Origin: Bacillota bacterium
GTDB lineage: Bacteria > Bacillota > Clostridia > Acetivibrionales > DTU013
NCBI GenBank assembly: GCA_023411715.1
Contig: JAEYOM010000004.1
Location: 20,351-84,350, forward strand
Direction: 5' to 3'
DNA: 64,000 nucleotides
Position numbers and translations under genes: made by a program. Positions 23,986-50,511 of the stretch are shown here, piece after piece. How positions within the stretch are numbered: the first letter of the stretch is position 1; each line of letters starts with the position of its first letter. The notes below the pieces were generated by a model. It saw nothing but the letters and a program-made list of their open reading frames with translations. It did not search any database and was not told the DNA's origin.

Positions 23986-24104
23986 AACTTCCTCCTGTAT
24001 TATAGATCCCGGGTTATACGACCCGCCCAATAATTTTCCTGTTGCGCAAATCCATTACACCCTTGATAAATGAAACTAAAGAACCGTCCCTTTGTTTCAT
24101 GTAA

Positions 24105-24385
24105 ACTAAAAAACCCCTCGATCCCAGATAAAGGGACGAGAGGATATGACTCACGCGTTACCACCCAAATTACCGCTGTAATTACAGTCTTCGACTGTTA
24201 TTCACGGCAGTCTCTTGATCATACCTTTAACGGAGTGACCCGGCTTATCGTACTTGCGCTTTCACGCTTTCAGCAAGCGGCTCCCGGAGGATTTTCAGGA
24301 AACTCTTCCGCAGCCTCGCACCGGCCGGCTGCTCTCTGTTGGATTAGCGATCCTTACTCGTTCCGATCATAGCAATAAAATATTA
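24105..24385 (-). promoter_or_regulatory. T-box riboswitch leader of ileS
   Basis: The minus strand carries AACAGAGAGCAGCC (stem I AGAGA element), the T-box sequence AAUUUGGGUGGUAACGCGUGA (24151-24170), and the terminator CCUCUCGUCCCUUUAUCUGGGAUCGAGGGGUUUUUU. I could not assign the specifier codon with confidence. Confidence 0.85.
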
Positions 24386-37011: not shown

Positions 37012-38730
37012 TCAAGCTTTATTTATATTTTTTGCACTATTTATCATCTCTTCTGCATATTTCAGAGATGTTGATGATGATTCTGAACCGCCTATCAGTC
37101 TCGCTATCTCCTTTATCTTTTTGCTCTTGTCCAGCAACTCCACAGTCGTCCTTGTATCGTTCTCTCCCGATATTTTTTCAATCAGGTAATGACTGCCCGC
37201 CATACATGCGATTTGAGCAAGATGCGTTACACAGATCACCTGATGCCCCTTTGAAATGTACAAAAGCTTTTCGCCAACCTTTTGTCCGGCTTTACCGCTT
37301 ATTCCGATATCGATCTCATCGAAGATCATTGTAGGTATTTTATCTACTTCGGCCAGTATCGTCTTGATCGCCAGCATGATCCTTGACATTTCACCGCCTG
37401 ATGCTATCTTTGCAAGGGGCTTCAATGGCTCGCCGGCATTAGCTGAGATAAGGAATTCCACCCTGTTGAGGCCGTTTTGCGTATATTTCCTCCAGCCATG
37501 GGCTCCGGCTGCATCATCAAATTGTATTTCCGCCTTGAATCTGGCTCTTTTCATCTCAAGATCGTCAAGCTGCCGGCCTATTCTTTCCTCAAGCAGTGAT
37601 GCAGCTTTCTTCCGCTCATCGTCCAATCTCAGCGACATTTCATAAAGCTGCCTGTCCAGTTCCGCCTGCCTGTTTCTCAAAAGATTGGCGGTTTCTTCAC
37701 TCTTTTCCATCTCGCTCAGTTGTTCCTGAGCCGCATCACAGAATTGCTGGACTTCCTCTATGGAAGAGCCGTACTTCCTCTTCAGTCTGTACAGAAGATC
37801 AAGCCGTTCCTCAATTTCTTCGAGCTGGGCCGGATCATATTCCGTGTTTTCAATGTTTTTCCTTATATCTGCAGTCAGGTCATCCAACTGATATATGATA
37901 TCCTGGAGGCGTTTGCGCAATTCTTCAAATTCATCCTCGAGCCTCGAGACAGATCCCAGTTGTGTAAGCGCCTCATTCATATTATCGGCTGCCGGTCTCC
38001 TTCCGGATTCCCCGGATGAAAGCAGCCCATACGCCACGGAAAGCGCCTCTGATATTTTTTCCGAATTCGCCAGGAGTGTTTTTTGTTTGTTCAGCTCTTC
38101 CTCCTCGCCCGGTTTCAACTTGGCCTTTTTTATCTCATCAATCTGGAATTTGAGAAGATCCATCTTTCTTTCGCGTTCGCCGGGATCCCCCGACAGAGCC
38201 TTCAGCTTTGCCCTGACTTCCCTGTACTGTTCCAGAAGCGTCGTATATTCGCGTCTTATCGATTGGATAGTGTCGCCTCCGAATGAATCCAGCAGATCGA
38301 TGTGGCTTTCCACTCTGAGCAGCGACTGGTTGTCATGCTGCCCGTGCAGGTCGATCAGGCGCTCGCCCAGCGACTTCAGCAAAGATGCCGCCACAAGCCT
38401 TCCGTTGACCCTGCATGTATTTCTGCCCGATTGGGTGAGTTCCCTGGAAAGTATCAAAGTACCGTCTTCTTCAGGATCAATGCCCATTTCGCCGAGAATA
38501 TCTCCGACCTTGTTTGCGTCCGACTGGAAAACAGCTTCAACGACAGCCTTGTCAGAGCCCGTCCTTATGATATCCTTTGAGACCCTGTCACCGAGGACTG
38601 CATTGATGGAATCGATAATTATTGATTTTCCGGCTCCTGTCTCACCGGTAAGTATGTTAAGACCGGAGCCAAGTTCAATATTGACCTCATCTATTAGAGC
38701 GATATCCCGAATGTTCAGCTGTAAAAGCAT
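37012..38730 (-). CDS. recN: DNA repair protein RecN
   Basis: 572 aa. Walker A GETGAGKS, long coiled coil, C-terminal signature SGGEMSRIMLA and Walker B MIFDEID. Confidence 0.95.
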   Translation of the reverse strand: MLLQLNIRDIALIDEVNIELGSGLNILTGETGAGKSIIIDSINAVLGDRVSKDIIRTGSDKAVVEAVFQSDANKVGDILGEMGIDPEEDGTLILSRELTQSGRNTCRVNGRLVAASLLKSLGERLIDLHGQHDNQSLLRVESHIDLLDSFGGDTIQSIRREYTTLLEQYREVRAKLKALSGDPGERERKMDLLKFQIDEIKKAKLKPGEEEELNKQKTLLANSEKISEALSVAYGLLSSGESGRRPAADNMNEALTQLGSVSRLEDEFEELRKRLQDIIYQLDDLTADIRKNIENTEYDPAQLEEIEERLDLLYRLKRKYGSSIEEVQQFCDAAQEQLSEMEKSEETANLLRNRQAELDRQLYEMSLRLDDERKKAASLLEERIGRQLDDLEMKRARFKAEIQFDDAAGAHGWRKYTQNGLNRVEFLISANAGEPLKPLAKIASGGEMSRIMLAIKTILAEVDKIPTMIFDEIDIGISGKAGQKVGEKLLYISKGHQVICVTHLAQIACMAGSHYLIEKISGENDTRTTVELLDKSKKIKEIARLIGGSESSSTSLKYAEEMINSAKNINKA

Positions 38731-38762
38731 ATGACCCCCCGAGACCCAATACTTGAAATAGC

Positions 38763-39212
38763 TTATTTGATCATTTTGCTGAGCTTGTTTACAAGTTCCT
38801 CCGCAATTTTTTCAGCCCTGCAGACTATCATGATCGTATCGTCGCCAGCTATCGTCCCGACTATCTCGGTCCATTTCAGCGTATCTACGGCTGACGCAGA
38901 CGCTTGAGCCATACCGGGCAGCGTTTTAACGATCACGATATTATTTGCGTAATCGCAGCTTACGAAAGATTCGGTAAAAATGGTGAGAAGCTTGTTGGTA
39001 ATGGAAGTTTCACTGTGCGATATCGGAGCATATTTGTAATGCTCGTCGTCGACCATTACCTTTATAAGCCTCAGTTCCTTTATATCTCTGGAGACAGTGG
39101 CCTGTGTAACATCCATACCGTTCTCCTTGAGTTTTTCCGCAAGCTCTTCCTGTGTCTCTATCTGATATCTCTCGATCAACTCAAGTATTTTCGCGTGTCT
39201 GCTGTATTTCAT
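38763..39212 (-). CDS. argR: Arginine repressor
   Basis: MKYSRHAKILELIERYQIETQEELAEKLKENGMDVTQATVSRDIKEL...GTIAGDDTIMIV. Confidence 0.95.
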   Translation of the reverse strand: MKYSRHAKILELIERYQIETQEELAEKLKENGMDVTQATVSRDIKELRLIKVMVDDEHYKYAPISHSETSITNKLLTIFTESFVSCDYANNIVIVKTLPGMAQASASAVDTLKWTEIVGTIAGDDTIMIVCRAEKIAEELVNKLSKMIK

Positions 39213-40083
39213 CTCTTTTCAGACTCTCTCCTCTATAATATATTTTGGTTCTGAGTACATTAAAGAAATTCCTGGATTTCATTTTTATAAGTTTTATCGA
39301 ATACGGCGACCTTTTGACTTCGATCCTGTCGCCTCCCCTTACCTCATGATCGTCCTGTCCGTCGCATGTGACCATTGCCGTATGCTGGTAGTCTTCACCG
39401 ATCATGGCGCCTATCACACTGTCCGGTTTGGTTACGAAAGACCTGGAATAAAGGATATGAGGACATATCGGCGTGATGAGCATCAAATCCGTATCCGGCT
39501 CTACAATTGGACCGCCGGCGGACAGCGAGTAGGCTGTCGAACCAGTGGGACTTGAAATGATAAGTCCGTCGCCCGGGAACGAATCGACAAAAACATCATT
39601 TATATACGCTTTGACATGTAAAATCCGTGAGACCGCTCCTCTGGCAATAACAACGTCGTTTAGCGCAAAATCCCTTTCCGGTTCTCCGTCCTGGCGGTAT
39701 ATCACGGTATCGAGCATCATTCTTTTCTCGACTTCGTACATGCCGGAAAAAAGCTGGTCTACAGCCCGGTCAATATCTTTTCTGTCCACTTCCGTTAAAA
39801 ATCCAAGGTTGCCAAGATTTATACCAAGTATCGGTATGTCTTTCGAGTAAAGCCTTCTGGCGGCCTTCAGGAAGGTACCGTCCCCTCCCAGGCAGACAAT
39901 GATCTCACTGTTGTTTATCAAGCTGTCCTCTTCACCACATGGCATACCGACGCCGCATTTTTCCGAAAGAGCATCGGACATCATGGCGCTGCCGCCTTTT
40001 TTGATTATACTTTCGGCGAGCTGCCGGGTATATGTAAATTCCGTATCACGATCAGCGTTTGTAATGATACCGATCTTTTTCAT
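39181..40083 (-). CDS. nadK: NAD kinase
   Basis: GGDGTFL motif. NLGNLGFLTE. Start chosen at MKKIGIITN (40083). The 3' end overlaps the argR start by 32 nt. Confidence 0.9.
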   Translation of the reverse strand: MKKIGIITNADRDTEFTYTRQLAESIIKKGGSAMMSDALSEKCGVGMPCGEEDSLINNSEIIVCLGGDGTFLKAARRLYSKDIPILGINLGNLGFLTEVDRKDIDRAVDQLFSGMYEVEKRMMLDTVIYRQDGEPERDFALNDVVIARGAVSRILHVKAYINDVFVDSFPGDGLIISSPTGSTAYSLSAGGPIVEPDTDLMLITPICPHILYSRSFVTKPDSVIGAMIGEDYQHTAMVTCDGQDDHEVRGGDRIEVKRSPYSIKLIKMKSRNFFNVLRTKIYYRGESLKRDEIQQTRENT

Positions 40084-40159
40084 CCACACCTCAGCTTAAA
40101 GCATGCTTTTTATTTTCTTTTACATTATATCGTATAATAATACAGAAGACAAATTCGAT

Positions 40160-40969
40160 TTAGAGTTCCACGTGCGATTGCTTAACTGTATTGTCGATTT
40201 CAGGCAATATTTCCCCAATGTCCCTGGTTCCGGCTCCAAACGACAGGTAGCACAGATATTCTATGTTACCCTCAGGCCCTTTAATCGGCGAGTATGTTAT
40301 GCCTTTTACTCCAAAACCAACCCCTATGGCAAAAGATACGATCTCTTCCACGACCTGGCGATGGATTGCAATGTCCCTGACCACGCCATGCTTGCCCACC
40401 TTGTCCCTGCCTGCTTCAAACTGCGGCTTTATCAGACAGAGCACCTCTCCGGCAGCCTGATTCAATAGTTGTTTTACTGCCGGCAGGACTATTTTCAAAG
40501 AAATGAAAGAAACATCTATGGAGGCAAAATCGACAGCCATGCCGATATCCTCCGGTTTTACATAACGGATGTTGGTCCTTTCCAGATTCAGTACGCGTTC
40601 GTCGTTCCTGAGCTGCCAGGCCAGCTGTCCATAGCCTACATCTATTGCAACGACCTTTTCTGCCCCGTTCTGGAGCATGCAGTCGGTAAACCCGCCTGTG
40701 GAGGCCCCGACATCCATCGTTTTTTTGCCTTTGAGATCTATCCCGAAGAAATTGATAGCCTTGTCCAGTTTCAAGCCGCCCCTGCTTACGAAAGGGTTCG
40801 GATTCTTCCTGATCTCTATTTCGGAATCCGCATGATAAATGCTCCCCGGTTTGTCCGCGCGCTCGCCGTTTACATAGATCAAGCCGGCCATGATAGAGGT
40901 CTTCGCTCTCTCCCGGCTTTCGAACAAACCTTTTTGTACAAGCAGCACGTCAAGCCTTTCTTTTTCCAA
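40160..40969 (-). CDS. tlyA: TlyA-family rRNA 2'-O-methyltransferase (S4 + FtsJ domains)
   Basis: RLDVLLVQKGLFESRERAKTSIMAGLIYVNG...DVGASTGGFTDCMLQNGA...LIKPQFE. TTG start. Confidence 0.9.
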   Translation of the reverse strand: MEKERLDVLLVQKGLFESRERAKTSIMAGLIYVNGERADKPGSIYHADSEIEIRKNPNPFVSRGGLKLDKAINFFGIDLKGKKTMDVGASTGGFTDCMLQNGAEKVVAIDVGYGQLAWQLRNDERVLNLERTNIRYVKPEDIGMAVDFASIDVSFISLKIVLPAVKQLLNQAAGEVLCLIKPQFEAGRDKVGKHGVVRDIAIHRQVVEEIVSFAIGVGFGVKGITYSPIKGPEGNIEYLCYLSFGAGTRDIGEILPEIDNTVKQSHVEL

Positions 40970-41100
40970 GGTATTACCTCCAGATAGAACTTTTAGCTTT
41001 TAGCTTTTAACTCAAAATTTAACACTTGTGACTCTATACTCAATATTATCGCTTAACATTATTAAAATAATGATATTTACTATGACCTTTACGTACTAAT

Positions 41101-41334
41101 ACCTGCTGCGCCGGTTGATTAATATTGCATGAGTTTCGTGACCTGGAGCATATTGATGAGGCATTGCCCAAGGAAAATATCTGTTTGAGCGAAGCATTCA
41201 CATCTATGCTTCGCATTTTGTTTCATCTGTAACTATTTGCGGAGCAAATAGTATTGTTAAATTTTCCAACAGAGCCGAATCTATATGCTCCGGGAACGTA
41301 AACTCCGCAATAGGAATCAACCGGCGCAGCAGGT
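41101..41334. repeat. 234-bp long-hairpin (MITE-like or invertible) element: ~52-bp imperfect terminal inverted repeats around a 129-nt core
   Basis: Left arm 41101-41153 (acctgctgcgccggttgatt aatattgcatgagtttcgtgacctggagcatat). Right arm 41283-41334 is its reverse complement, with the outer 20 nt perfect and about 85 percent identity overall. The core holds two perfect hairpins: gcgaagcat/atgcttcgc (41188-41213) and ctatttgc/gcaaatag (41233-41251). Confidence 0.9.
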
Positions 41335-41386
41335 TATGACTGAGTTCATCTAGTGAGAGTCAAACCGGCGCAAGCAGGTTATGACT
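41319..41386. repeat. 23/24-nt direct repeat duplicating the 3' end of dxs
   Basis: aaccggcgcagcaggttatgact (41319-41341) and aaccggcgcaagcaggttatgact (41363-41386). The second copy contains the dxs stop codon (41379-41381). Confidence 0.9.
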
Positions 41387-43265
41387 TATTTTTTATCAGT
41401 TTTATTATGCTGCGGCTTATCGACTCGGCATCGAGCCCGTATTTTTCAAAAATCCTGTTCCGTGGTCCGTGCGTTATCGGAGCGTCAGGGAAACCGAATA
41501 TACCTGTTTTTACCCTGTAACCGTTCCTGTTCAGAAGCTCCAGCACGGCGCTCCCAAAGCCGCCCGTTATACAGTTGTCCTCGAGCGTTGCGACCGCATG
41601 CGTTTTTGCGGCGCTTTCCAGTATCAGCCTTGCGTCGAGCGGCTTTACAAACCTGGCGTCGATCACGTCGGCATGTATGCTTTTTTCTGTGAGCAATTCC
41701 GATACGCGCAGCGCTGTTTCCACCATTTTTCCGACTGCCAGTATAGTGACGTCTTCGCCGTTTTGCAGCTTCAGGCCTTTTCCACACTGTATAGGGGATA
41801 TCGGCACCATTCGTACTTTTCCGGTGCCTCTGGGGTAACGTATCGCTATCGGTCCGTCATGCGCTGTAACCGCATAATCCAGCATGCGCTCAAACTCGAG
41901 ATAATCGCTGGGAGCGGCAATCGTCATATTGGGTATGTGTTCGAGATACGACAGATCGTAAATACCCTGGTGCGTCTCTCCGTCTTCACCTATCAGGCCT
42001 GCCCTGTCAATGGCAAAAACGACATGCAGATCCTGAAGCGCGACATCGTGTATTATCTGATCATACGAACGCTGAAGAAAAGTTGAATAAATTGCCACCA
42101 CAGGCTTGATACCCGCTTTTGCAAGACCGGCGGCAAACGTTACCGCATGCTGCTCCGCAATACCCACGTCAAAGAAACGTTCCGGATATTTTTTTGCAAA
42201 TTCCTCAAGTCCCGTACCAAGGGGCATTGCAGCAGTTATTGCGACGAGTCTGGGCTCGTTGGCCGCAAGATTGACCATTTTTTCGCCAAATATATCGGAA
42301 TAGGACGGCCCGTTATTGATCTTAACCTCGCCGGTCTCAATTTCAAACGGATTTATGCCGTGAAATTGCTGTGGCTTGTTTTCAGCAAACTTGTATCCCT
42401 TGCCCTTTTGGGTCAATACATGTATCAAAACGGGGCCTTTAAGTTTCTTAGCCCTTGAAAGCACATTTGTAAGTTCTTCTACGTCATGTCCGTCGATCGG
42501 CCCCAGATATTTCAGACCCAGTTCTTCGAATAACATTCCGGGAATCAGCATGTATTTTATAGATCCCTTTGCCCTGTTCAATGCGCGTGCGGCGCTGTCG
42601 CCTATGGCAGGCAGCCTCTTCAGCAGGGAATCAAAATCTTCCTTCGCTTTGGAATAGATCGGCTGTGTCCTTATTTTACTCAGGTAACGTGAAAAGCCGC
42701 CTACATTCTTGCTTATGGACATGCCGTTATCGTTAAGGATGATTATCATGTTGTTGCGTGAACGCCCTGCGTCATTGAGCGCTTCGAATGCCATACCGCC
42801 CGTCATCGCACCGTCGCCCATGACTGCGACTACGGAATAATTAACTCCCAGAATATCGCGCGCCTTGGCAAATCCGAGCGCGGCGGATATGGATGTGCTG
42901 CTGTGACCCGTATTGAAGCAGTCGCTATCGCTTTCACAGCTTTTCGGAAACCCGGAGAGGCCATCAATCTGACGAAGCGTGTCAAACCGGTCCCTTCGGC
43001 CTGTTATTATCTTATGCACGTAGGATTGGTGACCGACGTCCCATACTATCTTATCCCTCGGGGTGCTGAATACCCTGTGCAGCGCCAGGGTAAGCTCGAC
43101 TACGCCAAGATTTGACGCCAGATGCCCTCCCGTTTCGGAAACCTTTTCTATCAGGAACTGCCTGATCTCATCGGCAAGTATCTTCATTTGTACTAAATTC
43201 AGCTTTTTAATATCGTCCGAATTATTTATCCGATAAAGTATGCTTTCTTCACTTTTTTCTATCAT
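41379..43265 (-). CDS. dxs: 1-deoxy-D-xylulose-5-phosphate synthase
   Basis: 628 aa. GHSSTSISAALG, TPP motif GDGAMTGGMAFEALN, transketolase-like C-terminus. Confidence 0.95.
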   Translation of the reverse strand: MIEKSEESILYRINNSDDIKKLNLVQMKILADEIRQFLIEKVSETGGHLASNLGVVELTLALHRVFSTPRDKIVWDVGHQSYVHKIITGRRDRFDTLRQIDGLSGFPKSCESDSDCFNTGHSSTSISAALGFAKARDILGVNYSVVAVMGDGAMTGGMAFEALNDAGRSRNNMIIILNDNGMSISKNVGGFSRYLSKIRTQPIYSKAKEDFDSLLKRLPAIGDSAARALNRAKGSIKYMLIPGMLFEELGLKYLGPIDGHDVEELTNVLSRAKKLKGPVLIHVLTQKGKGYKFAENKPQQFHGINPFEIETGEVKINNGPSYSDIFGEKMVNLAANEPRLVAITAAMPLGTGLEEFAKKYPERFFDVGIAEQHAVTFAAGLAKAGIKPVVAIYSTFLQRSYDQIIHDVALQDLHVVFAIDRAGLIGEDGETHQGIYDLSYLEHIPNMTIAAPSDYLEFERMLDYAVTAHDGPIAIRYPRGTGKVRMVPISPIQCGKGLKLQNGEDVTILAVGKMVETALRVSELLTEKSIHADVIDARFVKPLDARLILESAAKTHAVATLEDNCITGGFGSAVLELLNRNGYRVKTGIFGFPDAPITHGPRNRIFEKYGLDAESISRSIIKLIKNKS

Positions 43266-43890
43266 TTTTAGTTTTCCTTTTTTTTGTGAAAAACAATATT
43301 TTGTCCAAAACGAAGCTGATTACCACACTCACCTTATATATTATGTAATTGCTATTGCGCAGCGCAATCGTTTTTCCGAGGGCCTTTCCACCAACTGTCA
43401 TCGCAGTTATCAATCCCGTTATCACAAGCTCCGCGATAGTAATCGTTTCCTGTTCGCCGATGATTCTTATAATAATGTAGGCGCCCGCAGCGCCGCTTAT
43501 AATGCCGCATATATCGCCAACGACGTCGTTGCATACATTTGATACCTTATCAGCATTCCTTATAAGCCTTATAGACTGTTTCGCACCGTAAAGCTTCCGG
43601 GATGCCATGGCATGGAACGGAGCCTCCTCAGCCGCCGTAACAGCCGTCCCTATGGTATCGAACATGATATTTATCAAAATTATAAATAATATTACCAAAA
43701 AAGCTGTAAGTATATCCGATTCTTTCAGAATATTGGATGATGCGATATTAAGTATTGCAGATATAAAAAAGGACGAAAAGGTAACAGCCAGTATCCAGAT
43801 TATATCATTCTTTTTAGCAGCACCCACAGCGGTTTTTTCTCTGAACTTTACTTTCTTTTCTTCGGCGGGATGCTTGAAATTATCGTCCAC
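43249..43890 (-). CDS. oapA: Small 4-TM membrane protein, proposed OLE-associated protein OapA
   Basis: Start chosen at GTG 43890, 9 nt after GGAGG (the track ORF begins at TTG 43914). Four hydrophobic segments. DVVGD (DxxxD) motif. 17-nt overlap with the dxs start. Sits directly downstream of the large RNA. Confidence 0.65.
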   Translation of the reverse strand: MDDNFKHPAEEKKVKFREKTAVGAAKKNDIIWILAVTFSSFFISAILNIASSNILKESDILTAFLVILFIILINIMFDTIGTAVTAAEEAPFHAMASRKLYGAKQSIRLIRNADKVSNVCNDVVGDICGIISGAAGAYIIIRIIGEQETITIAELVITGLITAMTVGGKALGKTIALRNSNYIIYKVSVVISFVLDKILFFTKKRKTKNDRKK

Positions 43891-43956
43891 CGACTTAAAC
43901 CTCCATATCAGCAATAAAGGACGTATCCTGAATCAGGATGCATCCCAGATGATTAA

Positions 43957-44593
43957 GTAAAAACCAGGTGGCAATATATTGAGTAAATTTTGCGGCTTAG
44001 GTCAGGCAGGATTTCCCCCGGAAATACCGATTTGTCGCCAAACCGGCGGTTTCCCTTTAAATTTCCGGCCGCAGCGTTACCGCTGTCGGGGCCTGATTAC
44101 CACTTAGTCCACACTGCAATCCCCAATATATTTCATTTGGAACAGCCTAGGGGTTTTCCCCGGCAGTCTGTCCGTTTCCTAGCCTCTTTTGCAAATAGGG
44201 TTTCAAATAGCGATAATGCGCTCATACCGGCCAGTAATCCTGCATCTGATCCATTATCCACCGTATTCACTCAAGGCAGGCTACGCTGTCCACAGCATCA
44301 AATGATACCGCATAACAGGTTCAATCCCTGATCGTAGTTGATACCAAGCTTCAAAATCCCTTTTTGAATATTCAAAGCCTCTTTCTTCCACAAGTCAGGG
44401 TCTCCACGGTAAAGGGGTCAACGCCTGCATGCCATTGCAGATCGCCCCTGAACCTTAACTCCCAGCACCAGCCCACCACTGGGCGTAGCAAGCCGACACA
44501 AGGAACTTCATCGATATGCCCTTTAACGGATTTTTAGGCCCGTCCTGAGAAACGTCAGTACTGACTAGAATACTGCGCCACCTTGTTTTTTGA
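43957..44593 (-). ncRNA. ole: Large structured ncRNA, proposed OLE (ornate, large, extremophilic) RNA
   Basis: About 640 nt with no credible ORF inside a packed operon. Own promoter. 5' AAGGUGGC pairs with 3' GCCACCUGG, followed by a U-run. A GNRA-capped helix (ACAGCG-GUAA-CGCUGC) exists only on the minus strand. The context ispA-RNA-oapA-dxs-tlyA is diagnostic. No covariance-model search was possible here. Confidence 0.7.
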
Positions 44594-44599
44594 ATTCTT

Positions 44600-44630
44600 A
44601 TTATAGCATATTTCTTGTGACCAATAAAGA
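44600..44630 (-). promoter_or_regulatory. Extended -10 promoter for the large ncRNA
   Basis: Minus strand TTTATT-17 nt-(TGC)TATAAT. TGCTATAAT corresponds to 44600-44608. Confidence 0.5.
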
Positions 44631-44750
44631 ATAACTATCATTCCTTTTAAGTTTCAATGCTGCCGAAACGATAAGTTACGACTCGTTATCGACCATATGC
44701 TTATTTATAATGCATTTACATTGTCCGCGCGCATTATTTGAACTCATTCA

Positions 44751-45641
44751 TCAATGATCGCGGTCCCTTACGAATCCAGCCAGATCCCTGAGAAAACCTG
44801 CTTTATCGTCGAAACTCTCCAAAGCGCCGAGCGCGGTATCTATTGTTTTATCAAGCATAGCCCGGGCATTTTCGAGACCATATAGCGTGACGTATGTAGA
44901 TTTGCCCGATCCAGCGTCGCTTCCGGCCGCTTTGCCCATCTTTCCGGGATCGCCTTTCACATCCATGATATCGTCCTTGATCTGGAAAGCGAGCCCAATA
45001 TTCTCCGCATAGCTGCCAAGCTTTTCGATATCTTTTTCAGAAGCGCCGCACAAAACAGCGCTTGCTATTACCGGAGCTTTTATAAGCGCGCCGGTCTTGC
45101 ACCTATGCATGAATTCCAATGTAACTGTTTCGATCTTCTTTCCTTCCGATTCCATGTCGACGACCTGTCCGCGAATCATGCCGTCCGCGCCTGCCGCCCC
45201 GGCAACGATTTGCATCGCTCTCAGCCTGGCGTCCATATTCCTGCCGTCTGAAATCGACGCTGCAAGCATCAGTTCATATGCGCTGTTCAGGAGCGCATCC
45301 CCCGCTAATATGGCCATTGCTTCTCCAAATACCTTGTGATTCGTCGGTACGCCTCTTCTGTAGTCGTCGTTGTCCATTGCGGGAAGATCGTCATGTATCA
45401 GGGAATAAGTATGTATCATCTCGATCGCGCACGCATACGGAAGTATTTCGTTCTTATTGCCGTCCAGCATTTCGCATACGGCAAGCGCCAGGACCGGCCT
45501 CAGCCTTTTTCCGCCGGCCATCAGGCTGTATTTCATCGCATTGTAAATGTTCGAGCCGGGGCCTTCCTTGATCGAAAGATAATCGTCAAGAGCATTGTTT
45601 ACAAGCTGTGTCCATTTGTCCAACCGAGCGTTGAAGTCCAT
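44751..45641 (-). CDS. ispA: Farnesyl-diphosphate synthase (polyprenyl synthetase)
   Basis: First Asp-rich motif LIHDDLPAMDNDDYRRG and second motif FQIKDDIMD. Confidence 0.95.
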   Translation of the reverse strand: MDFNARLDKWTQLVNNALDDYLSIKEGPGSNIYNAMKYSLMAGGKRLRPVLALAVCEMLDGNKNEILPYACAIEMIHTYSLIHDDLPAMDNDDYRRGVPTNHKVFGEAMAILAGDALLNSAYELMLAASISDGRNMDARLRAMQIVAGAAGADGMIRGQVVDMESEGKKIETVTLEFMHRCKTGALIKAPVIASAVLCGASEKDIEKLGSYAENIGLAFQIKDDIMDVKGDPGKMGKAAGSDAGSGKSTYVTLYGLENARAMLDKTIDTALGALESFDDKAGFLRDLAGFVRDRDH

Positions 45642-45648
45642 AAATCCA

Positions 45649-45882
45649 TCACTGTCCTAAAGCGGGCATCTCCTTTTCCAATATTCCGTTTTCGCCTTCT
45701 ATCAGTATAGTAATACTGCGCTCCGCCTCATCAAGCTTTTTGTTGCAGAACTTCGTAAGTTCGACACCCCTCTGGAAACAGTTTATCGAATCCTCGAGGG
45801 TAAGCTCGCCTTTTTCAAGCTTTTTAACTATCTCTTCGAGCTCCGCTATAGCCTGTTCGAAACTTGCACCTTTTTCACTCAT
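45649..45882 (-). CDS. xseB: Exodeoxyribonuclease VII small subunit
   Basis: Start moved to MSEKGASFEQAIAELEEIVKKLEKGELTLEDSINCFQRGVEL (45882). Confidence 0.9.
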   Translation of the reverse strand: MSEKGASFEQAIAELEEIVKKLEKGELTLEDSINCFQRGVELTKFCNKKLDEAERSITILIEGENGILEKEMPALGQ

Positions 45883-45924
45883 ATTTTTATCCCCCTCCGG
45901 GTTTCCCAGCATATCTTCAATTTT

Positions 45925-46060
45925 TAGGCATCGTTAACATATGACTTCCGCTGATCTTTTCCGGAAAACTTCACTAACCAGGCTGCATGGGCGAGTAGCA
46001 TGCGCAGTATGCGACCAGCCCGCTCCATTTTCCGTTAAAGAAGCGGAAGTAATATTTTAG
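45925..46060. repeat. REP-B hairpin element, copy 1, carrying a nested REP-A insertion (45980-46021)
   Basis: taggcatcgttaa...acttccgct...cggaaaa cttcactaacc [42-nt insert] gctccattttccg...agcggaagtaatatttta. Collinear with copy 2 (60416-60510) except for the insert. Confidence 0.9.
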
Positions 46061-47346
46061 TCGAGTCTTATTTGCACGCCTGGCCCCTTATCGATATCTC
46101 CCGGATCGCCCACTCCGCCTGAATCTCTGCCATACGGCTTTTCGCTTATTTCCTCTATTCGGCAGCTCAGAGTGCCATCCGTGACATAAACCCTGAGGCT
46201 GTCGCCGATATTTACGGAATGAATGGATTTCACCAGAGTATCGTCTTTTTCGGCACGTATTATACCATAGCCCCTTGCCAGTGAATTCAGAGGGCTCAGG
46301 GAATCCAACCTTGCCGCCAGCAGCGAGAGCCTGTTCCTGTACTGTATGCTCAATACTGAGAGCGCCTTATGCAGGTAACGTTTCTGAACGTCGAGCAGCA
46401 TGCGCTCCTGGTATATCTTGTTGTAGGGCTGTCTGAACGCGACGCTTTCTCCAAGCCTCTTCAAAGTGAGCCTTTCCATTGAGGTCTTTTTAACAATTGC
46501 ATTACGCAGGCGCATTTTAAGGCTATCCAGCCTGTTCTCGACCACTGATCTTTCCGGCATAACCAGTTCTGCCGCGGCCGAAGGGGTTGATGCCCTGACA
46601 TCGGCCACAAAATCGGATATTGTGAAATCCGTTTCATGCCCGACAGCCGAAATCACCGGTATGCGGGATTGATATATGCTCCTTGCGACAACTTCCTCGT
46701 TGAAGGCCCAGAGCTCCTCAAGTGATCCTCCGCCCCTCGCAACGATGATGACGTCGACATTGTCAAGTTCGTTGAGCCGGCGCACCGCCCCGGCTATCTG
46801 CCCCGAGGCCGCCTCACCCTGCACCTGTACGGGATATACCTTTATATTTACATTGTAGAATCTTCTGCTGAGGATGTTGATTATATCGCGTACAACGGCG
46901 CCCGTTGAAGATGTGACAACTCCGATCGAACCCGGCAAATAAGGGAGCTTCCTTTTTCTCGCTTCATCAAAAAGCCCTTCTGCCGAAAGTTTTTGCTTAA
47001 GCTTCTCGAAAGCTACATATAGCGCGCCGACACCGTCAGGCTGTATCTCTTCAGCATATAGCTGATATTGCCCATCGCGTTCAAATACGGAAATATACCC
47101 GCGTACCAGTACTTTCATTCCGTCCTCGGGTTCGAACACTACAGAGGCCGCATGCGATCGGAACATTACGCATTTTAGAACGGATTTTTCATCTTTGATG
47201 GTAAAATAGAAATGACCTGAATAGTGGCTTTTAAAATTGGATATCTCACCCTTCACCCAGATGCCTGAGAGTATGATATCCCTTGAAATCAGGTCTTTGA
47301 TATATTTATTCAACTCCGAGACCGTCAAAACGTTATTTGTTGGCAT
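46057..47346 (-). CDS. xseA: Exodeoxyribonuclease VII large subunit
   Basis: 429 aa. OB-fold N-terminus (VSELNKYIKDLISRD...WVKGEISNFKSHYSGHFYFTIKDE) and GRGGGS-like ARGGGSLEELWAFN. Confidence 0.95.
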   Translation of the reverse strand: MPTNNVLTVSELNKYIKDLISRDIILSGIWVKGEISNFKSHYSGHFYFTIKDEKSVLKCVMFRSHAASVVFEPEDGMKVLVRGYISVFERDGQYQLYAEEIQPDGVGALYVAFEKLKQKLSAEGLFDEARKRKLPYLPGSIGVVTSSTGAVVRDIINILSRRFYNVNIKVYPVQVQGEAASGQIAGAVRRLNELDNVDVIIVARGGGSLEELWAFNEEVVARSIYQSRIPVISAVGHETDFTISDFVADVRASTPSAAAELVMPERSVVENRLDSLKMRLRNAIVKKTSMERLTLKRLGESVAFRQPYNKIYQERMLLDVQKRYLHKALSVLSIQYRNRLSLLAARLDSLSPLNSLARGYGIIRAEKDDTLVKSIHSVNIGDSLRVYVTDGTLSCRIEEISEKPYGRDSGGVGDPGDIDKGPGVQIRLD

Positions 47347-47351
47347 AATGT

Positions 47352-47780
47352 TCAGATGCCGCCTGACTGCTCGCCGGCAGGAGCATTTTTATCGGATATG
47401 TTGCTGAGTATCCCGTTTACAAACGAGCCCGCATCCTCACTACTGTACTTCTTGGCAAGTTCAACCGCTTCGTTTACAGAGACGCTGTAAGGAATGTCTT
47501 CCCTGAAGGCAATTTCATATATGCTGAGCCTCATTATCGACAGGTCGATCCTTGATATCCTGCTTATCTTCCAGCCCTTGGAATGGGCTTCTATCATGTT
47601 GTTTATATAATCAAAATGGCTGTATACGCCATCGACCACATCGTTTATGTAAGTCCTGTCCTTTTCGGAGATCGTATTTTCCTCGAAGAACAAATTCTTC
47701 TGAGATTCCCTGTCGTCTTTCTGGAATTCCATCTGGTACAGGAGCTTCATCGCCAATTCCCTGGAGACTCTTCGTCCCAT
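47352..47780 (-). CDS. nusB: Transcription antitermination factor NusB
   Basis: MGRRVSRELAMKLLYQMEF...VNEAVELAKKYSSEDAGSFVNGIL. Confidence 0.95.
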   Translation of the reverse strand: MGRRVSRELAMKLLYQMEFQKDDRESQKNLFFEENTISEKDRTYINDVVDGVYSHFDYINNMIEAHSKGWKISRISRIDLSIMRLSIYEIAFREDIPYSVSVNEAVELAKKYSSEDAGSFVNGILSNISDKNAPAGEQSGGI

Positions 47781-47808
47781 GTGTTATCCTCCCGATTCTT
47801 ACCTTCCG

Positions 47809-48048
47809 CTACCTGTATGTGCCCGGCGGCAATACCCTGTCAAGAAGGTTCTTTATATAGTCCTTGTCGTCATGTATTCTTTTCCCAATATAATAACCTA
47901 CCCCGGTCAATAATGCAATAAAAAGGACTCTCCAAAATCCGAGTATCAGTATTAAAACAGCGGTCAAAAAGCCGATCGCCGCTCCATTGATCGCGCCACG
48001 GTTTGAATTGTAGAATTCCAGGATTTTTTCAAGGCTCATTATTGACAC
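47809..48048 (-). CDS. Small membrane protein (DUF2273-like) of the asp23 cluster
   Basis: 79 aa, two TM helices. Sits downstream of the amaP-like gene. Confidence 0.6.
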   Translation of the reverse strand: MSIMSLEKILEFYNSNRGAINGAAIGFLTAVLILILGFWRVLFIALLTGVGYYIGKRIHDDKDYIKNLLDRVLPPGTYR

Positions 48049-48051
48049 CTC

Positions 48052-48612
48052 CTATTCGACTCTTGCTTTAAATGTGACGCCTGTGTATATACTGTCCACG
48101 ATCACTTTTACGTTCTTGACCTCTATCCCGGAAGCTTCCTCTACAGATTTTTTGACCCTGTTCTGTACCTCTTCCGAAATCACCGGGATACTGAGATCGG
48201 GCATTACTACTATCCGGACCTCTATTTCCACGCCGTCGTCGGCTTTCCTGACGAGCGTCTTCGATTCCCTGACCCCGTTGGATCTCTTTGAGGCGTTGAT
48301 CGCGACATTTTCAATAGAGTTCAGCGATATCCTGATTTCCCCGATATTAGTTTGTTTACTTACAGCTTTTTTATCCTTGTTGCTTCTGACGCCTGAAAGC
48401 AGGAACATTATGCTCATTGCGAAGAAGATCAATCCGATTGTGAATATGATAACTCTCAGTGTTGTCCCGATATCTGACGAGATAGCACTTGTTACCAGGC
48501 CCGTAATGTCGTCGAACGCCTTTGGGACAAACGCTATGTACATCACGAACACGGACAGCACCGCAAGACAAAAAGCATACACAGCCAGCAAAACTCTAAA
48601 AAAGATATTCAT
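48052..48612 (-). CDS. amaP: Alkaline-shock-response membrane anchor protein (AmaP-like)
   Basis: 186 aa. Two N-terminal TM helices and a C-terminal Asp23-like beta region. Adjacent to asp23. Confidence 0.6.
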   Translation of the reverse strand: MNIFFRVLLAVYAFCLAVLSVFVMYIAFVPKAFDDITGLVTSAISSDIGTTLRVIIFTIGLIFFAMSIMFLLSGVRSNKDKKAVSKQTNIGEIRISLNSIENVAINASKRSNGVRESKTLVRKADDGVEIEVRIVVMPDLSIPVISEEVQNRVKKSVEEASGIEVKNVKVIVDSIYTGVTFKARVE

Positions 48613-48692
48613 GCCATACCACCTCTCCGGTCACCATTTTCCTTGGTTTATCCTACGCTTTTTGATGGATATCTTAATTATATTGTATTTAC

Positions 48693-48721
48693 CAAAAAAA
48701 ATAAACCCTTCCGGGTTTATT
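48693..48721 (-). terminator. Strong intrinsic terminator after asp23
   Basis: Minus strand AUAAACCC-GGAA-GGGUUUAU followed by UUUUUUUU. Confidence 0.8.
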
Positions 48722-48734
48722 AATAAATACGTAT

Positions 48735-49139
48735 TTACTTAATTTTTGTCTGTTCCTCAGGCAGTTCCTTCTTATGATCTCTTTCAATATTGACGCCCTG
48801 TATATGTATATTGACCTCTACTACGTTAAGGCCGGTCATTTCTTCGACAGCATGCTTCACTTTTTCCTGGATGCTCCACGCAACATCAGGTATGCGGTAG
48901 CCGTAATCCACTATAATGTAGAGGTCTATCGCCGCTTCCTTTTCTCCGACTTCAACCTTGACGCCTTTGGAAAGGTTTTTTCTGCCAAGTGCTTCAGCTA
49001 TCCCGCCTGCAATTCCGCCGCTCATGCCTGTGACTCCGGGGACCTCCATCGCCGCAATGCCAGCTATGATTGCAACAACCTCGTCGGTTATTTTTATGGC
49101 GCCTATCTCATTGACCACACTTTGAACGTCTTCTTCCAT
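48735..49139 (-). CDS. Asp23/Gls24-family envelope stress protein
   Basis: Start chosen at MEEDVQS (49139, GGAGG 5 nt upstream). KITDEVVAIIAGIAAMEVPGVTGMSG is family-typical. Confidence 0.85.
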   Translation of the reverse strand: MEEDVQSVVNEIGAIKITDEVVAIIAGIAAMEVPGVTGMSGGIAGGIAEALGRKNLSKGVKVEVGEKEAAIDLYIIVDYGYRIPDVAWSIQEKVKHAVEEMTGLNVVEVNIHIQGVNIERDHKKELPEEQTKIK

Positions 49140-49204
49140 GGCTACCTCCATTGGTACATCTTGCAATACAATCATTATAGCACTTCCTCCGCGTCAAGTA
49201 AATG

Positions 49205-49792
49205 TCAGAACAGCGTCTTTATATGAATATCTCCGACATCTACGTCGCCCTGCCTCGTAACGATATCGGTGATCTGGGCGGTCTGTGAAGAAGTCAGGCT
49301 CGGGGTCTTGATAACGATATCAACGCTGCCGTTGTCGGCGAACAGGACGAATGTTTCGTCAAACCCCATCTTGTTGATCAGAGCCTCGATCCTCATTTCC
49401 TTATCAGAGTTCTCAGTCAGCGTGATGATTTTAGCCTGTGCTTCCGCTTTCATCTCATCACTGGAATTGATATCGTCCGCTATAGCCTTGAGAGATTCGC
49501 TGTTTTCGCTTCTGCTCTGTTCCTTATCCATTTTGGCCTGCACAAAGTAATCATTAGCCATTTTTGAAGCGGTTACATTAAGCTGGGTATTCTCATTTTC
49601 AGCTACATCCTGTCCTGTTCCATCCAGACCTTCGTTGGCGATCTCATTATCTACATAAACCGCCTCACCCAGAGTACCGTCGGTATTGGTCGATGTGCTT
49701 CCCTGTCTGTAGCTGTACTGCAGGTAGCCAGCTACCACTATCATGAGAACCAATGCTAAAATGACTATCTGCTTCCTTTTAAAAACCATCAT
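49205..49792 (-). CDS. spoIIIAH: Stage III sporulation protein AH
   Basis: Start moved to MMVFKRKQIVILALVLMIVVAGYL (49792). C-terminal YscJ/FliF-like region EMRIEALINKMGFDETFVLF. Last gene of the spoIIIA operon. Confidence 0.85.
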   Translation of the reverse strand: MMVFKRKQIVILALVLMIVVAGYLQYSYRQGSTSTNTDGTLGEAVYVDNEIANEGLDGTGQDVAENENTQLNVTASKMANDYFVQAKMDKEQSRSENSESLKAIADDINSSDEMKAEAQAKIITLTENSDKEMRIEALINKMGFDETFVLFADNGSVDIVIKTPSLTSSQTAQITDIVTRQGDVDVGDIHIKTLF

Positions 49793-49902
49793 GACTCTGC
49801 CCCCTTTATAAAACTGCGAACAAGTTTTTTCGTTTTTTGTCCCATTCAATAATTAATATATTCAGGTCGTACAGCGTTTATATCTTTTTTTTGGAAAACC
49901 CT

Positions 49903-50511
49903 TTACTTTTTCCTCTGAACGACTTCGACCCTGTGAGCCGGTATATCAAGCACCACCCTGACGGCGCTGACGATATGTTCCCTGACCGTAACGCTGTCCG
50001 CTCCTTCCGCCACTACCAGGACGCCTTTTACCTCAGGACTCAGCTTTTTGAGGATGACCGGAGTCTTCCCCCCCGTCGGTGAATCCTCGTAAACGAGTGT
50101 ATTCTCACTTTCGTCCTCCGTTATATTCCTGGTACCGCCTTCGCTGTCCTTTTCATCCGTCCTGCTGGTCTTTTTGCTGGTGTCATAGGCAGGTACATTC
50201 TCTCCTGCTGCTGAATATGTGATCATGACATCCACCCTGCCGACTCCCTGTATCTGGGAAAGTAATGTCCTGAGCCTTGTTTCCGTGGCATCGCCGCCCG
50301 AAGTGTTCTGTTTCATCACTTGTTCCTGTTCGGAAGTCTTTTGAGGCTCCTGCTTGGTATCCTGCGTCTTTGCGCCAAACAAAGCCGAGCCTGCAATGAT
50401 CAGGATAATTCCGATAATTATGACAATGGCGGTATTCTCGATCAATTTTTTCTTATCCTGGCCCTGTATGAATTCCTTCACTCTTTTTATAACACTTTTG
50501 AAAATTTCCAC
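49903..50511 (-). CDS. spoIIIAG: Stage III sporulation protein AG
   Basis: 202 aa. TM, then LRTLLSQIQGVGRVDVMITY...PEVKGVLVVAEGADS. Confidence 0.85.
   Translation of the reverse strand: MEIFKSVIKRVKEFIQGQDKKKLIENTAIVIIIGIILIIAGSALFGAKTQDTKQEPQKTSEQEQVMKQNTSGGDATETRLRTLLSQIQGVGRVDVMITYSAAGENVPAYDTSKKTSRTDEKDSEGGTRNITEDESENTLVYEDSPTGGKTPVILKKLSPEVKGVLVVAEGADSVTVREHIVSAVRVVLDIPAHRVEVVQRKK

What the first reader, a model, noticed from the sequence alone, without database searches (positions are those of the whole stretch)
43249..44640. ORF-free ~640-nt structured RNA between ispA and a 4-TM protein: an OLE RNA / OapA locus invisible to ORF calling
43915-44750 is the largest coding-free gap in an otherwise tightly packed minus-strand block. 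Its only track ORF (43990..44331, + strand) is Pro/Arg-rich junk with no RBS. On the minus strand the gap has an extended -10 promoter (TGCTATAAT at 44600-44608). The RNA's 5' end (AAGGUGGC, ~44577-44584) pairs with its 3' end (GCCACCUGG, 43964-43972), and a U-run follows directly. Internal helices include ACAGCG-GUAA-CGCUGC, GGGG-AAAA-CCCC and GUCAGUACUGAC. The first has a GNRA loop only if the RNA is read on the minus strand. The order xseA-xseB-ispA-[RNA]-small membrane protein-dxs-tlyA-nadK-argR-recN is the published context of OLE RNA and its partner OapA in Bacillus halodurans and anaerobic Firmicutes. The downstream protein has four hydrophobic segments and a DVVGD (DxxxD) motif. It overlaps the dxs start by 17 nt, which suggests translational coupling. 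The class is known, but its biochemical role is still unresolved, and this copy sits in an operon with two further unexplained RNA-like elements (see the dxs-tlyA hairpin and REP-B findings).
Basis: partly seen in the sequence, partly recalled or inferred. Interest (0 to 1): 0.8.

Follow-up and report, generated by a model that had tools for sequence, protein, structure and literature searches.

The report
Ordinary OLE RNA and oapA locus

Summary
Confirmed. Rfam's OLE model (RF01071) matches window 43952-44597, minus strand, end to end: 532 bits against a threshold of 50, E = 2.7e-153.

- **Structure.** 97.8% of cells are paired, and 67 pairs carry compensatory changes.
- **Not coding.** The gap shows no codon periodicity.
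- **Partner protein.** The downstream 213-aa protein has the OapA hallmarks. It follows ole directly, as its relatives do in 32 of 33 loci. It has several hydrophobic segments, an invariant DxxxD motif and a weak CNNM-domain match with no cytoplasmic domains.
- **Context.** ispA-ole-oapA-dxs synteny, an extended -10 promoter ahead of ole, and the oapA/dxs overlap are all conserved in relatives.
- **Host.** An uncultured Clostridia lineage (relatives carry Hungateiclostridiaceae and Acetivibrionales labels).

One detail is wrong. GUCAGUACUGAC is not a local hairpin; it is one strand of a covarying long-range helix.

OLE is intriguing as a class, because its biochemical function is unknown and it may span the membrane. 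This copy adds nothing new. Already known; low interest.

The parts
44600..44608 (-). Extended -10 promoter element TGCTATAAT for ole. It ends 17 nt before the GGUGG of helix P1.
   Evidence: Read. TGnTAnAAT is present upstream of OLE in 27 of 30 loci, usually 10-17 nt before P1. An own promoter with 5' ends near P1 is experimentally known for B. halodurans OLE (PMC3413148).
44624..44629 (-). Conserved CTTTAT box at the -35 position of the ole promoter. It is a poor match to TTGACA and its role is unknown.
   Evidence: Alignment. CTTTAT or CTTTTA is listed at this position in most relatives.
43952..44597 (-). OLE RNA gene (ole), full length. The structured core runs from the P1 5' strand to the P1 3' strand, 43966-44583.
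   Evidence: Rfam RF01071, 532.3 bits, E = 2.7e-153, model 1-616/616. Covariation.
44577..44583 (-). P1 5' strand (AGGUGGC). It pairs with 43966-43972.
   Evidence: RNAalifold helix 1. Three of its 7 pairs have compensatory changes, such as C-G to U-A and G-C to A-U.
43966..43972 (-). P1 3' strand (GCCACCU). A U-rich tail follows at 43959-43963.
   Evidence: The U-rich 3' tail is also in the Rfam consensus.
44565..44576 (-). P3/P3.1 5' strand (GCAGUAUUCUAG). It pairs with 44142-44150 (CUAGGCUGU). The literature proposes this helix as the membrane-spanning stem.
   Evidence: RNAalifold helices 2-3, 100% paired, nearly invariant. Role from PMC12265935.
44548..44563 (-). 5' strand of a long-range helix that pairs with 44164-44179.
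   Evidence: Helix 4: 14 pairs, 7 with changes on both sides, 97% paired.
44525..44544 (-). P4 hairpin with the A-rich loop CUAAAAAU, a dimerisation contact in the cryo-EM structures.
   Evidence: Identical to the Rfam consensus. Invariant in 29 sequences. Role from PMC12265935.
44459..44505 (-). P5/P5.1 hairpin with loop GCCCA (44480-44484), the kissing-loop partner of the P6.1 loop. The flanking GAUGAAG and GUGGAGA are the published k-turn (OapC site) nucleotides.
   Evidence: Invariant columns. Roles from PMC9723947 and PMC12286853.
44408..44454 (-). P6/P6.1 hairpin. Its loop AAUGGCAU (core at 44430-44435) is complementary to the P5.1 loop.
44326..44400 (-). P7, a variable-length stem. It is extended here by a 38-nt insertion where the Rfam model has 7 positions.
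   Evidence: insert. On its own it folds to -26.9 kcal/mol, z = -4.6. Its length differs widely among relatives.
44283..44320 (-). P8 hairpin.
   Evidence: helix 11: 15 pairs, 4 compensatory.
44182..44277 (-). P9 long arm. Its terminal loop carries the palindrome GGCC (44229-44232), the symmetric kissing-loop dimer contact.
   Evidence: GGCC is invariant in 29 sequences. Role from PMC12286853.
43973..44132 (-). 3' domain, closed by the helix 44122-44132 with 43973-43983. It includes the four-way junction P12.2/P13/P14/P15.
   Evidence: helices 18-28, many with compensatory changes.
44069..44089 (-). P13 hairpin with the GNRA tetraloop GUAA (44077-44080) and a single bulged A. This is the published OapB binding site.
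   Evidence: Requirement for a GNRA loop plus a one-nucleotide bulge from PMC7936274. In this copy the bulge sits 5 bp from the loop, not 3 (my reading).
43918..43946 (-). 12-bp hairpin (one 1x1 mismatch) between ole and the oapA ribosome-binding site, followed by UUAUU. Candidate leaky terminator or 3'-end stabiliser.
   Evidence: A GC-rich hairpin at the same place in roughly half of the relatives. The consensus terminator scan did not flag it.
43900..43904 (-). Ribosome-binding site GGAGG for oapA, 9 nt before the GTG start.
   Evidence: Conserved GGAGG-spacer-GTG in relatives.
43249..43890 (-). oapA, 213 aa with a GTG start. The mechanical ORF also opens at TTG 43914.
   Evidence: Gene callers on two public contigs give the same 213-aa product. 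CNNM 27.7 bits. DVVGD at 122-126 with D122, G125 and D126 invariant in 50 homologs. OLE lies directly upstream of its relatives in 32 of 33 loci.
43249..43265 (-). 17-nt overlap of the oapA 3' end with the dxs start codon.
   Evidence: An oapA/dxs overlap of 1-32 nt in 27 of 31 related loci.

Best explanation
Window 43952-44597 (minus strand) is a bona fide full-length ole gene for OLE RNA. Window 43249-43890 is oapA, which encodes its membrane-protein partner.

**Shown here**
- The RNA matches the OLE family model end to end.
- Its helices covary across 29 relatives.
- It keeps every sequence element that published structures assign a role. These are the A-rich P4 loop, the complementary P5.1 and P6.1 loops and the GGCC P9 loop (all RNA-RNA dimer contacts), the k-turn nucleotides (OapC site), and the P13 GNRA loop with a bulge (OapB site).
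- It is not coding.
- A conserved extended -10 promoter sits just upstream of P1.
- oapA follows on the same strand and overlaps dxs.

**Inferred from work on Halalkalibacterium halodurans and Clostridium OLE RNAs**
- The RNA is made in high amounts from its own promoter, and also by read-through from xseA-xseB-ispA.
- It is long-lived and folds into two domains joined by the P3 stem.
- It dimerises and is held at the cell membrane by OapA dimers, possibly with P3 crossing the bilayer.
- Together with OapB, OapC and bS21 it forms a ribonucleoprotein particle. That particle helps the cell cope with short-chain alcohols, cold, excess Mg2+ and poor carbon sources.

**My own inference**
- The hairpin at 43918-43946 lets only part of the transcription continue into oapA-dxs. 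This would give much RNA and little membrane protein.
- The oapA/dxs overlap couples translation of the two genes.

The biochemical activity of the particle is unknown for the whole class.
For: - **Family match.**: RF01071, 532.3 bits against a gathering score of 50, E = 2.7e-153, model 1-616/616.
- **Neighbours.**: 32 of 33 loci that encode an OapA relative have a full or contig-truncated OLE hit directly upstream on the same strand. The 33rd lacks upstream DNA.
- **Structure.**: 185 consensus pairs, 97.8% of cells paired against 37-50% when partners are slid. 67 pairs change on both sides against 16-24 slid and 27.5 +/- 3.2 shuffled (0 of 500 shuffles reach the observed value). The P1 and P3 long-range helices were recovered without using the Rfam structure.
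- **Not coding.**: no codon periodicity (p = 0.89).
- **Promoter.**: TGnTAnAAT upstream of OLE in 27 of 30 loci. PMC3413148 reports an own promoter, 5' ends near P1 and a half-life of about 3 h in B. halodurans.
- **OapA.**: weak CNNM match in 50 of 50 homologs, invariant DxxxD, 4-5 hydrophobic segments, basic N- and C-terminal tails. These fit the OapA description in PMC11332333 and PMC12265935.
- **Synteny.**: dxs follows oapA in 32 of 33 loci, ispA precedes ole in 27, and oapA and dxs overlap in 27 of 31.
Against: Nothing argues against the identification. The limits are these:
- No expression, localisation or binding data exist for this organism.
- The AlphaFold model of OapA was poor (pLDDT 54), so the CNNM-like fold was not confirmed structurally.
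- The P13 bulge lies 5 bp from the tetraloop rather than the consensus 3 bp.
- No OapB- or OapC-like gene was seen among 10 small ORFs of the window. These genes are not expected to be linked to ole.
- The hairpin between ole and oapA was not flagged by the terminator scan. It is absent in several relatives, so the attenuation idea is weak.
Confidence: 0.96

Rival explanations
1. The structured region is only a cis-acting 5' leader (a riboswitch-like or attenuator element) that controls oapA-dxs expression. It is not a stand-alone functional RNA.
For: ole, oapA and dxs lie on one strand with short spacers. A terminator-like hairpin sits between ole and the oapA ribosome-binding site. oapA overlaps dxs. 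[quoted passage not shown]
Against: The sequence is a full-length member of a class shown to be a stable, abundant, trans-acting RNA that binds OapA, OapB and OapC (PMC3413148, PMC7936274, PMC9723947). About 630 nt with more than 25 helices is far beyond any known leader. The conserved loops are RNA-RNA dimer contacts, not expression-platform elements (PMC12286853).
Confidence: 0.02
2. It is a decaying or non-functional relic of an OLE gene.
For: P7 carries a 38-nt insertion relative to the model, and the P13 bulge is shifted.
Against: The bit score (532) is in the same range as relatives from isolate genomes (550-555 bits for Clostridium sp. KNHs214 and Haloimpatiens). All conserved blocks are intact and 97.8% of consensus-pair cells are paired. 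oapA is intact and conserved. P7 length varies throughout the family (PMC11332333 describes natural variants that lack P7 and P8).
Confidence: 0.01
3. The gap encodes a protein: the + strand ORF 43990-44331, or another frame.
For: A 113-codon open frame exists on the + strand.
Against: It has a TTG start and Pro/Arg-rich, low-complexity content. There is no 3-nt periodicity of substitutions (p = 0.89). Open-frame length varies erratically among relatives, from 58 to 178 aa. The sequence is fully accounted for by the RNA structure.
Confidence: 0.005

Closest known systems
OLE (ornate, large, extremophilic) RNA, Rfam RF01071, full-length type (Puerta-Fernandez et al. 2006; Fernando & Breaker 2024, PMC11332333)
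   Same: - End-to-end model match.
- All helices from P1 to P15 present, including P7 and P8.
- Conserved dimerisation loops, k-turn nucleotides and P13 GNRA loop.
- Own promoter just 5' of P1, and a U-rich 3' tail.
- An anaerobic Bacillota host.
- oapA immediately downstream.
   Different: Only minor, family-typical variation. P7 is extended by about 30 nt. The P13 bulge lies 5 bp from the tetraloop rather than 3 bp. A clade-specific CTTTAT box sits at the -35 position.
OapA (OLE-associated protein A; BH2780 of H. halodurans as I recall)
   Same: - Small protein (213 aa) with several transmembrane segments.
- Invariant DxxxD motif (DVVGD).
- Basic termini.
- Weak similarity to the CNNM/DUF21 transmembrane domain, with no CBS or CorC domains.
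- Encoded directly after ole.
   Different: Public records mislabel relatives as 'Mg2+ and Co2+ transporter CorB' or 'CBS domain containing-hemolysin-like protein'.
MpfA/CorB (CNNM-family Mg2+ transporters)
   Same: The transmembrane domain is distantly related (PF01595, 27.7 bits).
   Different: OapA is less than half the length. It lacks the CBS-pair and CorC cytoplasmic domains, carries a DxxxD motif that CNNM domains lack, and is tied to an RNA partner. MpfA is anticorrelated with OLE across genomes (PMC11332333).

Membership tests
OLE RNA (RF01071) | Covariance-model score above the curated gathering score over the full model | tested here: met
   532.3 bits against 50; model 1-616/616; E = 2.7e-153.
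OLE RNA (RF01071) | Ornate multi-helix secondary structure supported by covariation, including the long-range P1 and P3 helices | tested here: met
   185 pairs in 28 helices. 97.8% paired against 37-50% slid. 67 pairs with compensatory changes against 16-24 slid. 0 of 500 shuffles reach the observed values.
OLE RNA (RF01071) | Highly conserved loop sequences used for RNA dimerisation (A-rich P4 loop, complementary P5.1/P6.1 loops, palindromic P9 loop) | tested here: met
   CUAAAAAU, GCCCA, AAUGGCAU and GGCC are all present, and invariant in the 29-sequence alignment. Roles from PMC12265935 and PMC12286853. Dimer formation itself was not tested.
OLE RNA (RF01071) | [quoted passage not shown] | tested here: met
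   GUAA tetraloop at 44077-44080 and one bulged A in the 5' strand. The bulge is 5 bp from the loop here against 3 bp in the Rfam consensus. Criterion from PMC7936274.
OLE RNA (RF01071) | K-turn-forming nucleotides at the base of P5 (OapC site) | tested here: inconclusive
   The flanking sequences AUCGAUGAAGUUCC and CCGUGGAGACC are invariant in all 29 sequences. Whether a k-turn forms cannot be tested from sequence. Criterion from PMC9723947 and PMC12286853.
OLE RNA (RF01071) | Non-coding | tested here: met
   No codon periodicity (p = 0.89) and no conserved open frame.
OLE RNA (RF01071) | oapA immediately downstream on the same strand | tested here: met
   77-nt spacer in the window. The same arrangement holds in 32 of 33 related loci.
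OLE RNA (RF01071) | Host in Bacillota, typically anaerobic or extremophilic | tested here: met
   The closest public loci are MAGs labelled Clostridia, Bacillota, Hungateiclostridiaceae, Acetivibrionales and Oscillospiraceae. Sporulation genes flank the locus (SpoIIIAH and a SpoIVB-type peptidase).
OLE RNA (RF01071) | Abundant, stable transcript of about 600 nt that localises to the membrane | not testable with these tools
   Needs RNA-seq or a northern blot, plus localisation experiments.
OapA | Encoded directly after ole | tested here: met
OapA | Small membrane protein with about four transmembrane helices | tested here: inconclusive
   Hydropathy gives 4-5 hydrophobic segments: 28-52, 52-88, 122-146, 148-168 and 182-202. 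The AlphaFold model has long helices but a pLDDT of only 54, so topology is not resolved.
OapA | DxxxD motif | tested here: met
   D122-V-V-G-D126. D122, G125 and D126 are invariant in 50 homologs. Criterion from PMC11332333.
OapA | Weak CNNM (PF01595) similarity, scoring below true MpfA/CorB proteins and without cytoplasmic CBS or CorC domains | tested here: met
   27.7 bits against the cut-off of 28.4, covering residues 65-194. 50 of 50 homologs match weakly (best E = 2.7e-7). All are about 208-226 aa.
OapA | Absence of the conserved proline that characterises CNNM domains | not tested
   Needs an alignment to CNNM reference sequences, which was not made.
OapA | Binds OLE RNA cooperatively and brings it to the membrane | not testable with these tools
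   Biochemical property (Block et al. 2011, as cited in PMC12265935).

The most novel reading that the evidence does not exclude
In this Clostridia clade ole, oapA and dxs may form one tightly coupled expression unit, built from three parts:
- a conserved extended -10 promoter with a non-canonical CTTTAT upstream box;
- a leaky hairpin between ole and oapA;
- a conserved oapA/dxs overlap (27 of 31 loci).

If so, synthesis of the OLE particle would be mechanistically tied to the first step of isoprenoid (DXP pathway) synthesis. The particle could then sense or control the supply of membrane lipid carriers, rather than merely sharing a neighbourhood with these genes.
Probability: 0.1. Interest if true: 0.5.

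Novelty: already known. Interest (0 to 1): 0.18.

Why it matters
OLE RNA is one of the largest and best-conserved bacterial non-coding RNAs whose biochemical function is still unknown. Recent cryo-EM work suggests that it may be an RNA that spans the membrane. This window does not change that picture. It adds one more standard full-length copy, from an uncultured Clostridia lineage, to a class of more than 2,800 catalogued genomes (PMC11332333).

Its practical value is annotation. The 0.84-kb 'empty' gap is explained, and the + strand ORF 43990-44331 should not be called as a gene. The 213-aa protein should be named OapA, not 'CorB' or 'hemolysin-like', as public records label its relatives.

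The comparative by-products may be of modest use to specialists. These are the conserved ole promoter, the hairpin between ole and oapA, and the conserved oapA/dxs overlap.

Tried and rejected
1. **Structure of OapA.** I ran AlphaFold2 on a 50-sequence alignment to test for the CNNM-like fold. Mean pLDDT was 53.9 and pTM 0.31. That is too poor for a fold search, so none was run. The alignment was probably too shallow, at 63-96% identity.
2. **Solved structures.** Sequence and profile searches of the PDB with OapA found nothing, even at E <= 10. No solved relative is detectable by sequence.
3. **NCBIfam.** There is no model hit for OapA.
4. **Promoter and terminator scan of 43000-45000.** It did not report the TGCTATAAT promoter, which lacks a -35 match, or the hairpin between ole and oapA, which has an internal mismatch. 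Support for these two elements therefore rests on conservation in relatives, not on the scan.
5. **OapB (KOW/SBB) or OapC (L7Ae-type) genes.** I looked among 10 small ORFs of the window and found none. This was not exhaustive, and these genes are not expected to be linked to ole.
6. **Published gene order.** I tried to confirm the ispA/dxs context in the literature. The 2006 discovery paper is not held, and a full-text search for 'OLE RNA' with ispA and dxs returned nothing. I tested synteny directly on 33 loci instead.
Rejected, because covariation supports the long-range helix instead.
8. **Coding potential of the gap.** Considered and rejected.


Full report
**Observation.** I read the minus strand of 43100-44900 and listed ORFs for 38000-50000.
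- TGCTATAAT at 44600-44608;
- AAGGUGGC at 44577-44584;
- GCCACCUGG at 43964-43972, followed by UUUUU;
- the ACAGCG-GUAA-CGCUGC and GGGG-AAAA-CCCC hairpins;
- GUCAGUACUGAC.

The minus-strand gene order is xseA (46057-47346), xseB (45649-45912), ispA/FPP synthase (44751-45641), the gap, a small membrane protein (43249-43890), dxs (41379-43265), tlyA (40160-40969), nadK (39181-40089), argR (38763-39212) and recN (37012-38730). Pfam and NCBIfam matches confirm these assignments. The small protein overlaps the dxs start codon by 17 nt.

**Decisive test.** A scan of the whole window against Rfam 15 at gathering thresholds gave two hits. One is OLE (RF01071) at 43952-44597 on the minus strand. It scores 532.3 bits against a gathering score of 50, with E = 2.7e-153, covers model positions 1-616 of 616, and is not truncated. 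The other is an unrelated T-box leader at 24129-24379. The only large departure from the model is a 38-nt insertion where the model has 7 positions, in the variable stem P7. On its own that segment folds as an extended hairpin (-26.9 kcal/mol, z = -4.6).

**Source and relatives.** The window's Dxs protein is encoded identically on an ENA metagenome contig of 225,772 bp and on a Logan contig. Gene callers on both give the same 213-aa product for the small protein, with the GTG start at 43890.

A scan of one genome per species for relatives of that protein returned 33 loci at 45-95% identity. Nearly all are MAGs labelled Clostridia, Bacillota, Hungateiclostridiaceae, Acetivibrionales or Oscillospiraceae. 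Two are isolates: Clostridium sp. KNHs214 and Haloimpatiens lingqiaonensis.

Rfam found OLE directly upstream on the same strand in 32 of the 33 loci; the last has no upstream DNA. A tblastn search with the window's proteins showed dxs after oapA in 32 of 33 loci and ispA before ole in 27. oapA and dxs overlap by 1-32 nt in 27 of 31 loci.

**Structure.** I aligned the window's OLE with 28 full-length relatives at 63-94% identity (A1). I let RNAalifold predict a consensus without giving it the Rfam structure. It returned 185 pairs in 28 helices.
- **P1:** It shows C-G to U-A and G-C to A-U compensations.
- **P3:** the long-range stem, 44565-44576 with 44142-44150.
- **An adjoining long-range helix:** 44548-44563 with 44164-44179.
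- **Hairpins P4 to P9.**
- **The 3' domain,** with its four-way junction.

Counting on this structure gave the following.

| Measure | Observed | Partners slid 1-3 columns | 500 shuffles |
|---|---|---|---|
| Cells forming standard pairs | 97.8% | 37-50% | 93.2% mean; 0 of 500 reach observed |
| Pairs changed on both sides | 67 | 16-24 | 27.5 +/- 3.2; 0 of 500 reach observed |

The structure was derived from this same alignment, which favours it somewhat. Even so, the margin is very large, and it agrees with the independent Rfam model.

GUCAGUACUGAC cannot be a hairpin, because its loop would be only 2 nt, and the palindrome is lost in most relatives. That segment is the 5' strand of the covarying long-range helix.

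**Not coding.** Variability per position shows no 3-nt periodicity: 119, 116 and 114 variable columns in the three phases, p = 0.89. The longest stop-free stretch ranges erratically from 58 to 178 aa among relatives. The + strand ORF 43990-44331 is an artefact.

**Functional elements known from the literature.** All are intact.
- **Dimer contacts.** The cryo-EM structures use the A-rich P4 loop, the complementary P5.1 and P6.1 loops and the palindromic P9 loop (PMC12265935, PMC12286853). The window has CUAAAAAU (P4), GCCCA (44480-44484), AAUGGCAU (core 44430-44435) and GGCC (44229-44232). All are invariant in the alignment.
- **OapC site.** The nucleotides flanking P5 and P6 that form the OapC k-turn (PMC9723947, PMC12286853) are invariant.
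- **OapB site.** This needs a GNRA tetraloop and a one-nucleotide bulge in P13 (PMC7936274). The window has GUAA (44077-44080) and one bulged A. The bulge is 5 bp from the loop rather than 3, and that position toggles among close relatives.

The RNA has P7 and P8, so it is the 'full-length' type and not variant 1 or 2 of PMC11332333.

**Expression signals.** TGnTAnAAT lies upstream of OLE in 27 of 30 loci, usually ending 10-17 nt before P1. A conserved CTTTAT box sits at the -35 position. This fits the experimentally shown own promoter of B. halodurans OLE, whose 5' ends map near the start of P1 (PMC3413148).

A 12-bp hairpin (43918-43946, followed by UUAUU) lies between the OLE 3' end and the oapA ribosome-binding site (GGAGG at 43900-43904). 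Roughly half of the relatives have a GC-rich hairpin at the same place. I infer, weakly, that this is a leaky terminator or a 3'-end stabiliser that keeps RNA output high and OapA output low. The consensus scan did not flag it, and several relatives lack it.

**The protein.**
- The 213-aa product has 4-5 hydrophobic segments, lysine- and arginine-rich termini, and a single DxxxD motif (DVVGD, residues 122-126).
- It matches PF01595 (CNNM) at 27.7 bits, just under the cut-off of 28.4. It has no CBS or CorC domain.
- A database search found 3,962 homologs. The 120 best listed are about 190-226 aa long. Where named at all, they are called 'CorB' or 'CBS domain containing-hemolysin-like protein'.
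- In an alignment of 50 homologs, D122, G125 and D126 are invariant. All 50 match CNNM only weakly.
- This is the published signature of OapA: the next-best cluster after MpfA on the CNNM model, with a distinctive DxxxD motif (PMC11332333).
- The AlphaFold model was too poor to use (pLDDT 54). No solved structure is detectable by sequence.

**Mechanism.**
- *Shown:* this is a complete ole-oapA module with conserved structure, conserved contact sites, a conserved promoter and conserved synteny.
- *Inferred from the H. halodurans and Clostridium work:* the RNA is abundant and stable, it dimerises, and OapA dimers hold it at the membrane, possibly with P3 crossing it. With OapB, OapC and bS21 it forms a particle that aids adaptation to alcohols, cold, Mg2+ and poor carbon sources (PMC3413148, PMC10898510, PMC12265935).
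- *Unknown:* the chemistry the particle performs is not known for any member.

**Verdict.** The class is well known: Rfam has a model, and 2,822 Bacillota genomes were catalogued in PMC11332333. This copy is typical, so novelty is 'already known' and interest is low.

Noticed in passing
window 41319-41386 and 41098-41120 (dxs-tlyA gap, 40970-41378); L001 7880-8039: A 46-nt tandem repeat (AGTCATAACCTGCTTGCGCCGGTTTGACATCACACTGGATGAACTC) begins in the last codons of dxs. The window has about 1.5 copies. The public contig L001, which is 99.9% identical, has 3.5 copies, 92 nt more. An inverted copy of the repeat core (AATCAACCGGCGCAGCAGGT) lies about 200 nt downstream, so a long hairpin is possible. 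No Rfam match at E <= 1.
   Followed up: partly
window 24129-24379, minus strand: A T-box leader (RF00230, 123.3 bits against a gathering score of 93), upstream of the long ORF 20869-24030.
   Followed up: no
window 44624-44629, and the same position in most related loci: A conserved CTTTAT box sits at the -35 position of the ole promoter. It does not resemble TTGACA, yet it is kept while the surrounding intergenic sequence diverges. It may be a regulator site.
   Followed up: partly
L035 3438-3927 (contig CAYJJQ010000005.1): A short OLE hit (490 nt, 244.7 bits) next to an OapA relative, in a MAG labelled Muribaculaceae (Bacteroidota). It may be a reduced OLE variant, and the label may reflect mis-binning or horizontal transfer, as PMC11332333 discusses for non-Bacillota hits.
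   Followed up: no
window 44069-44089 (P13): The single-nucleotide bulge of the OapB-binding hairpin lies 5 bp from the GNRA loop in the window and in L004. In L003, L027 and the Rfam consensus it lies 3 bp away. The position toggles among very close relatives.
   Followed up: partly
Public annotations of OapA relatives: Where OapA homologs are named at all, they are annotated as 'Mg2+ and Co2+ transporter CorB' or 'CBS domain containing-hemolysin-like protein', although they lack CBS and CorC domains. NCBIfam has no OapA model.
   Followed up: no
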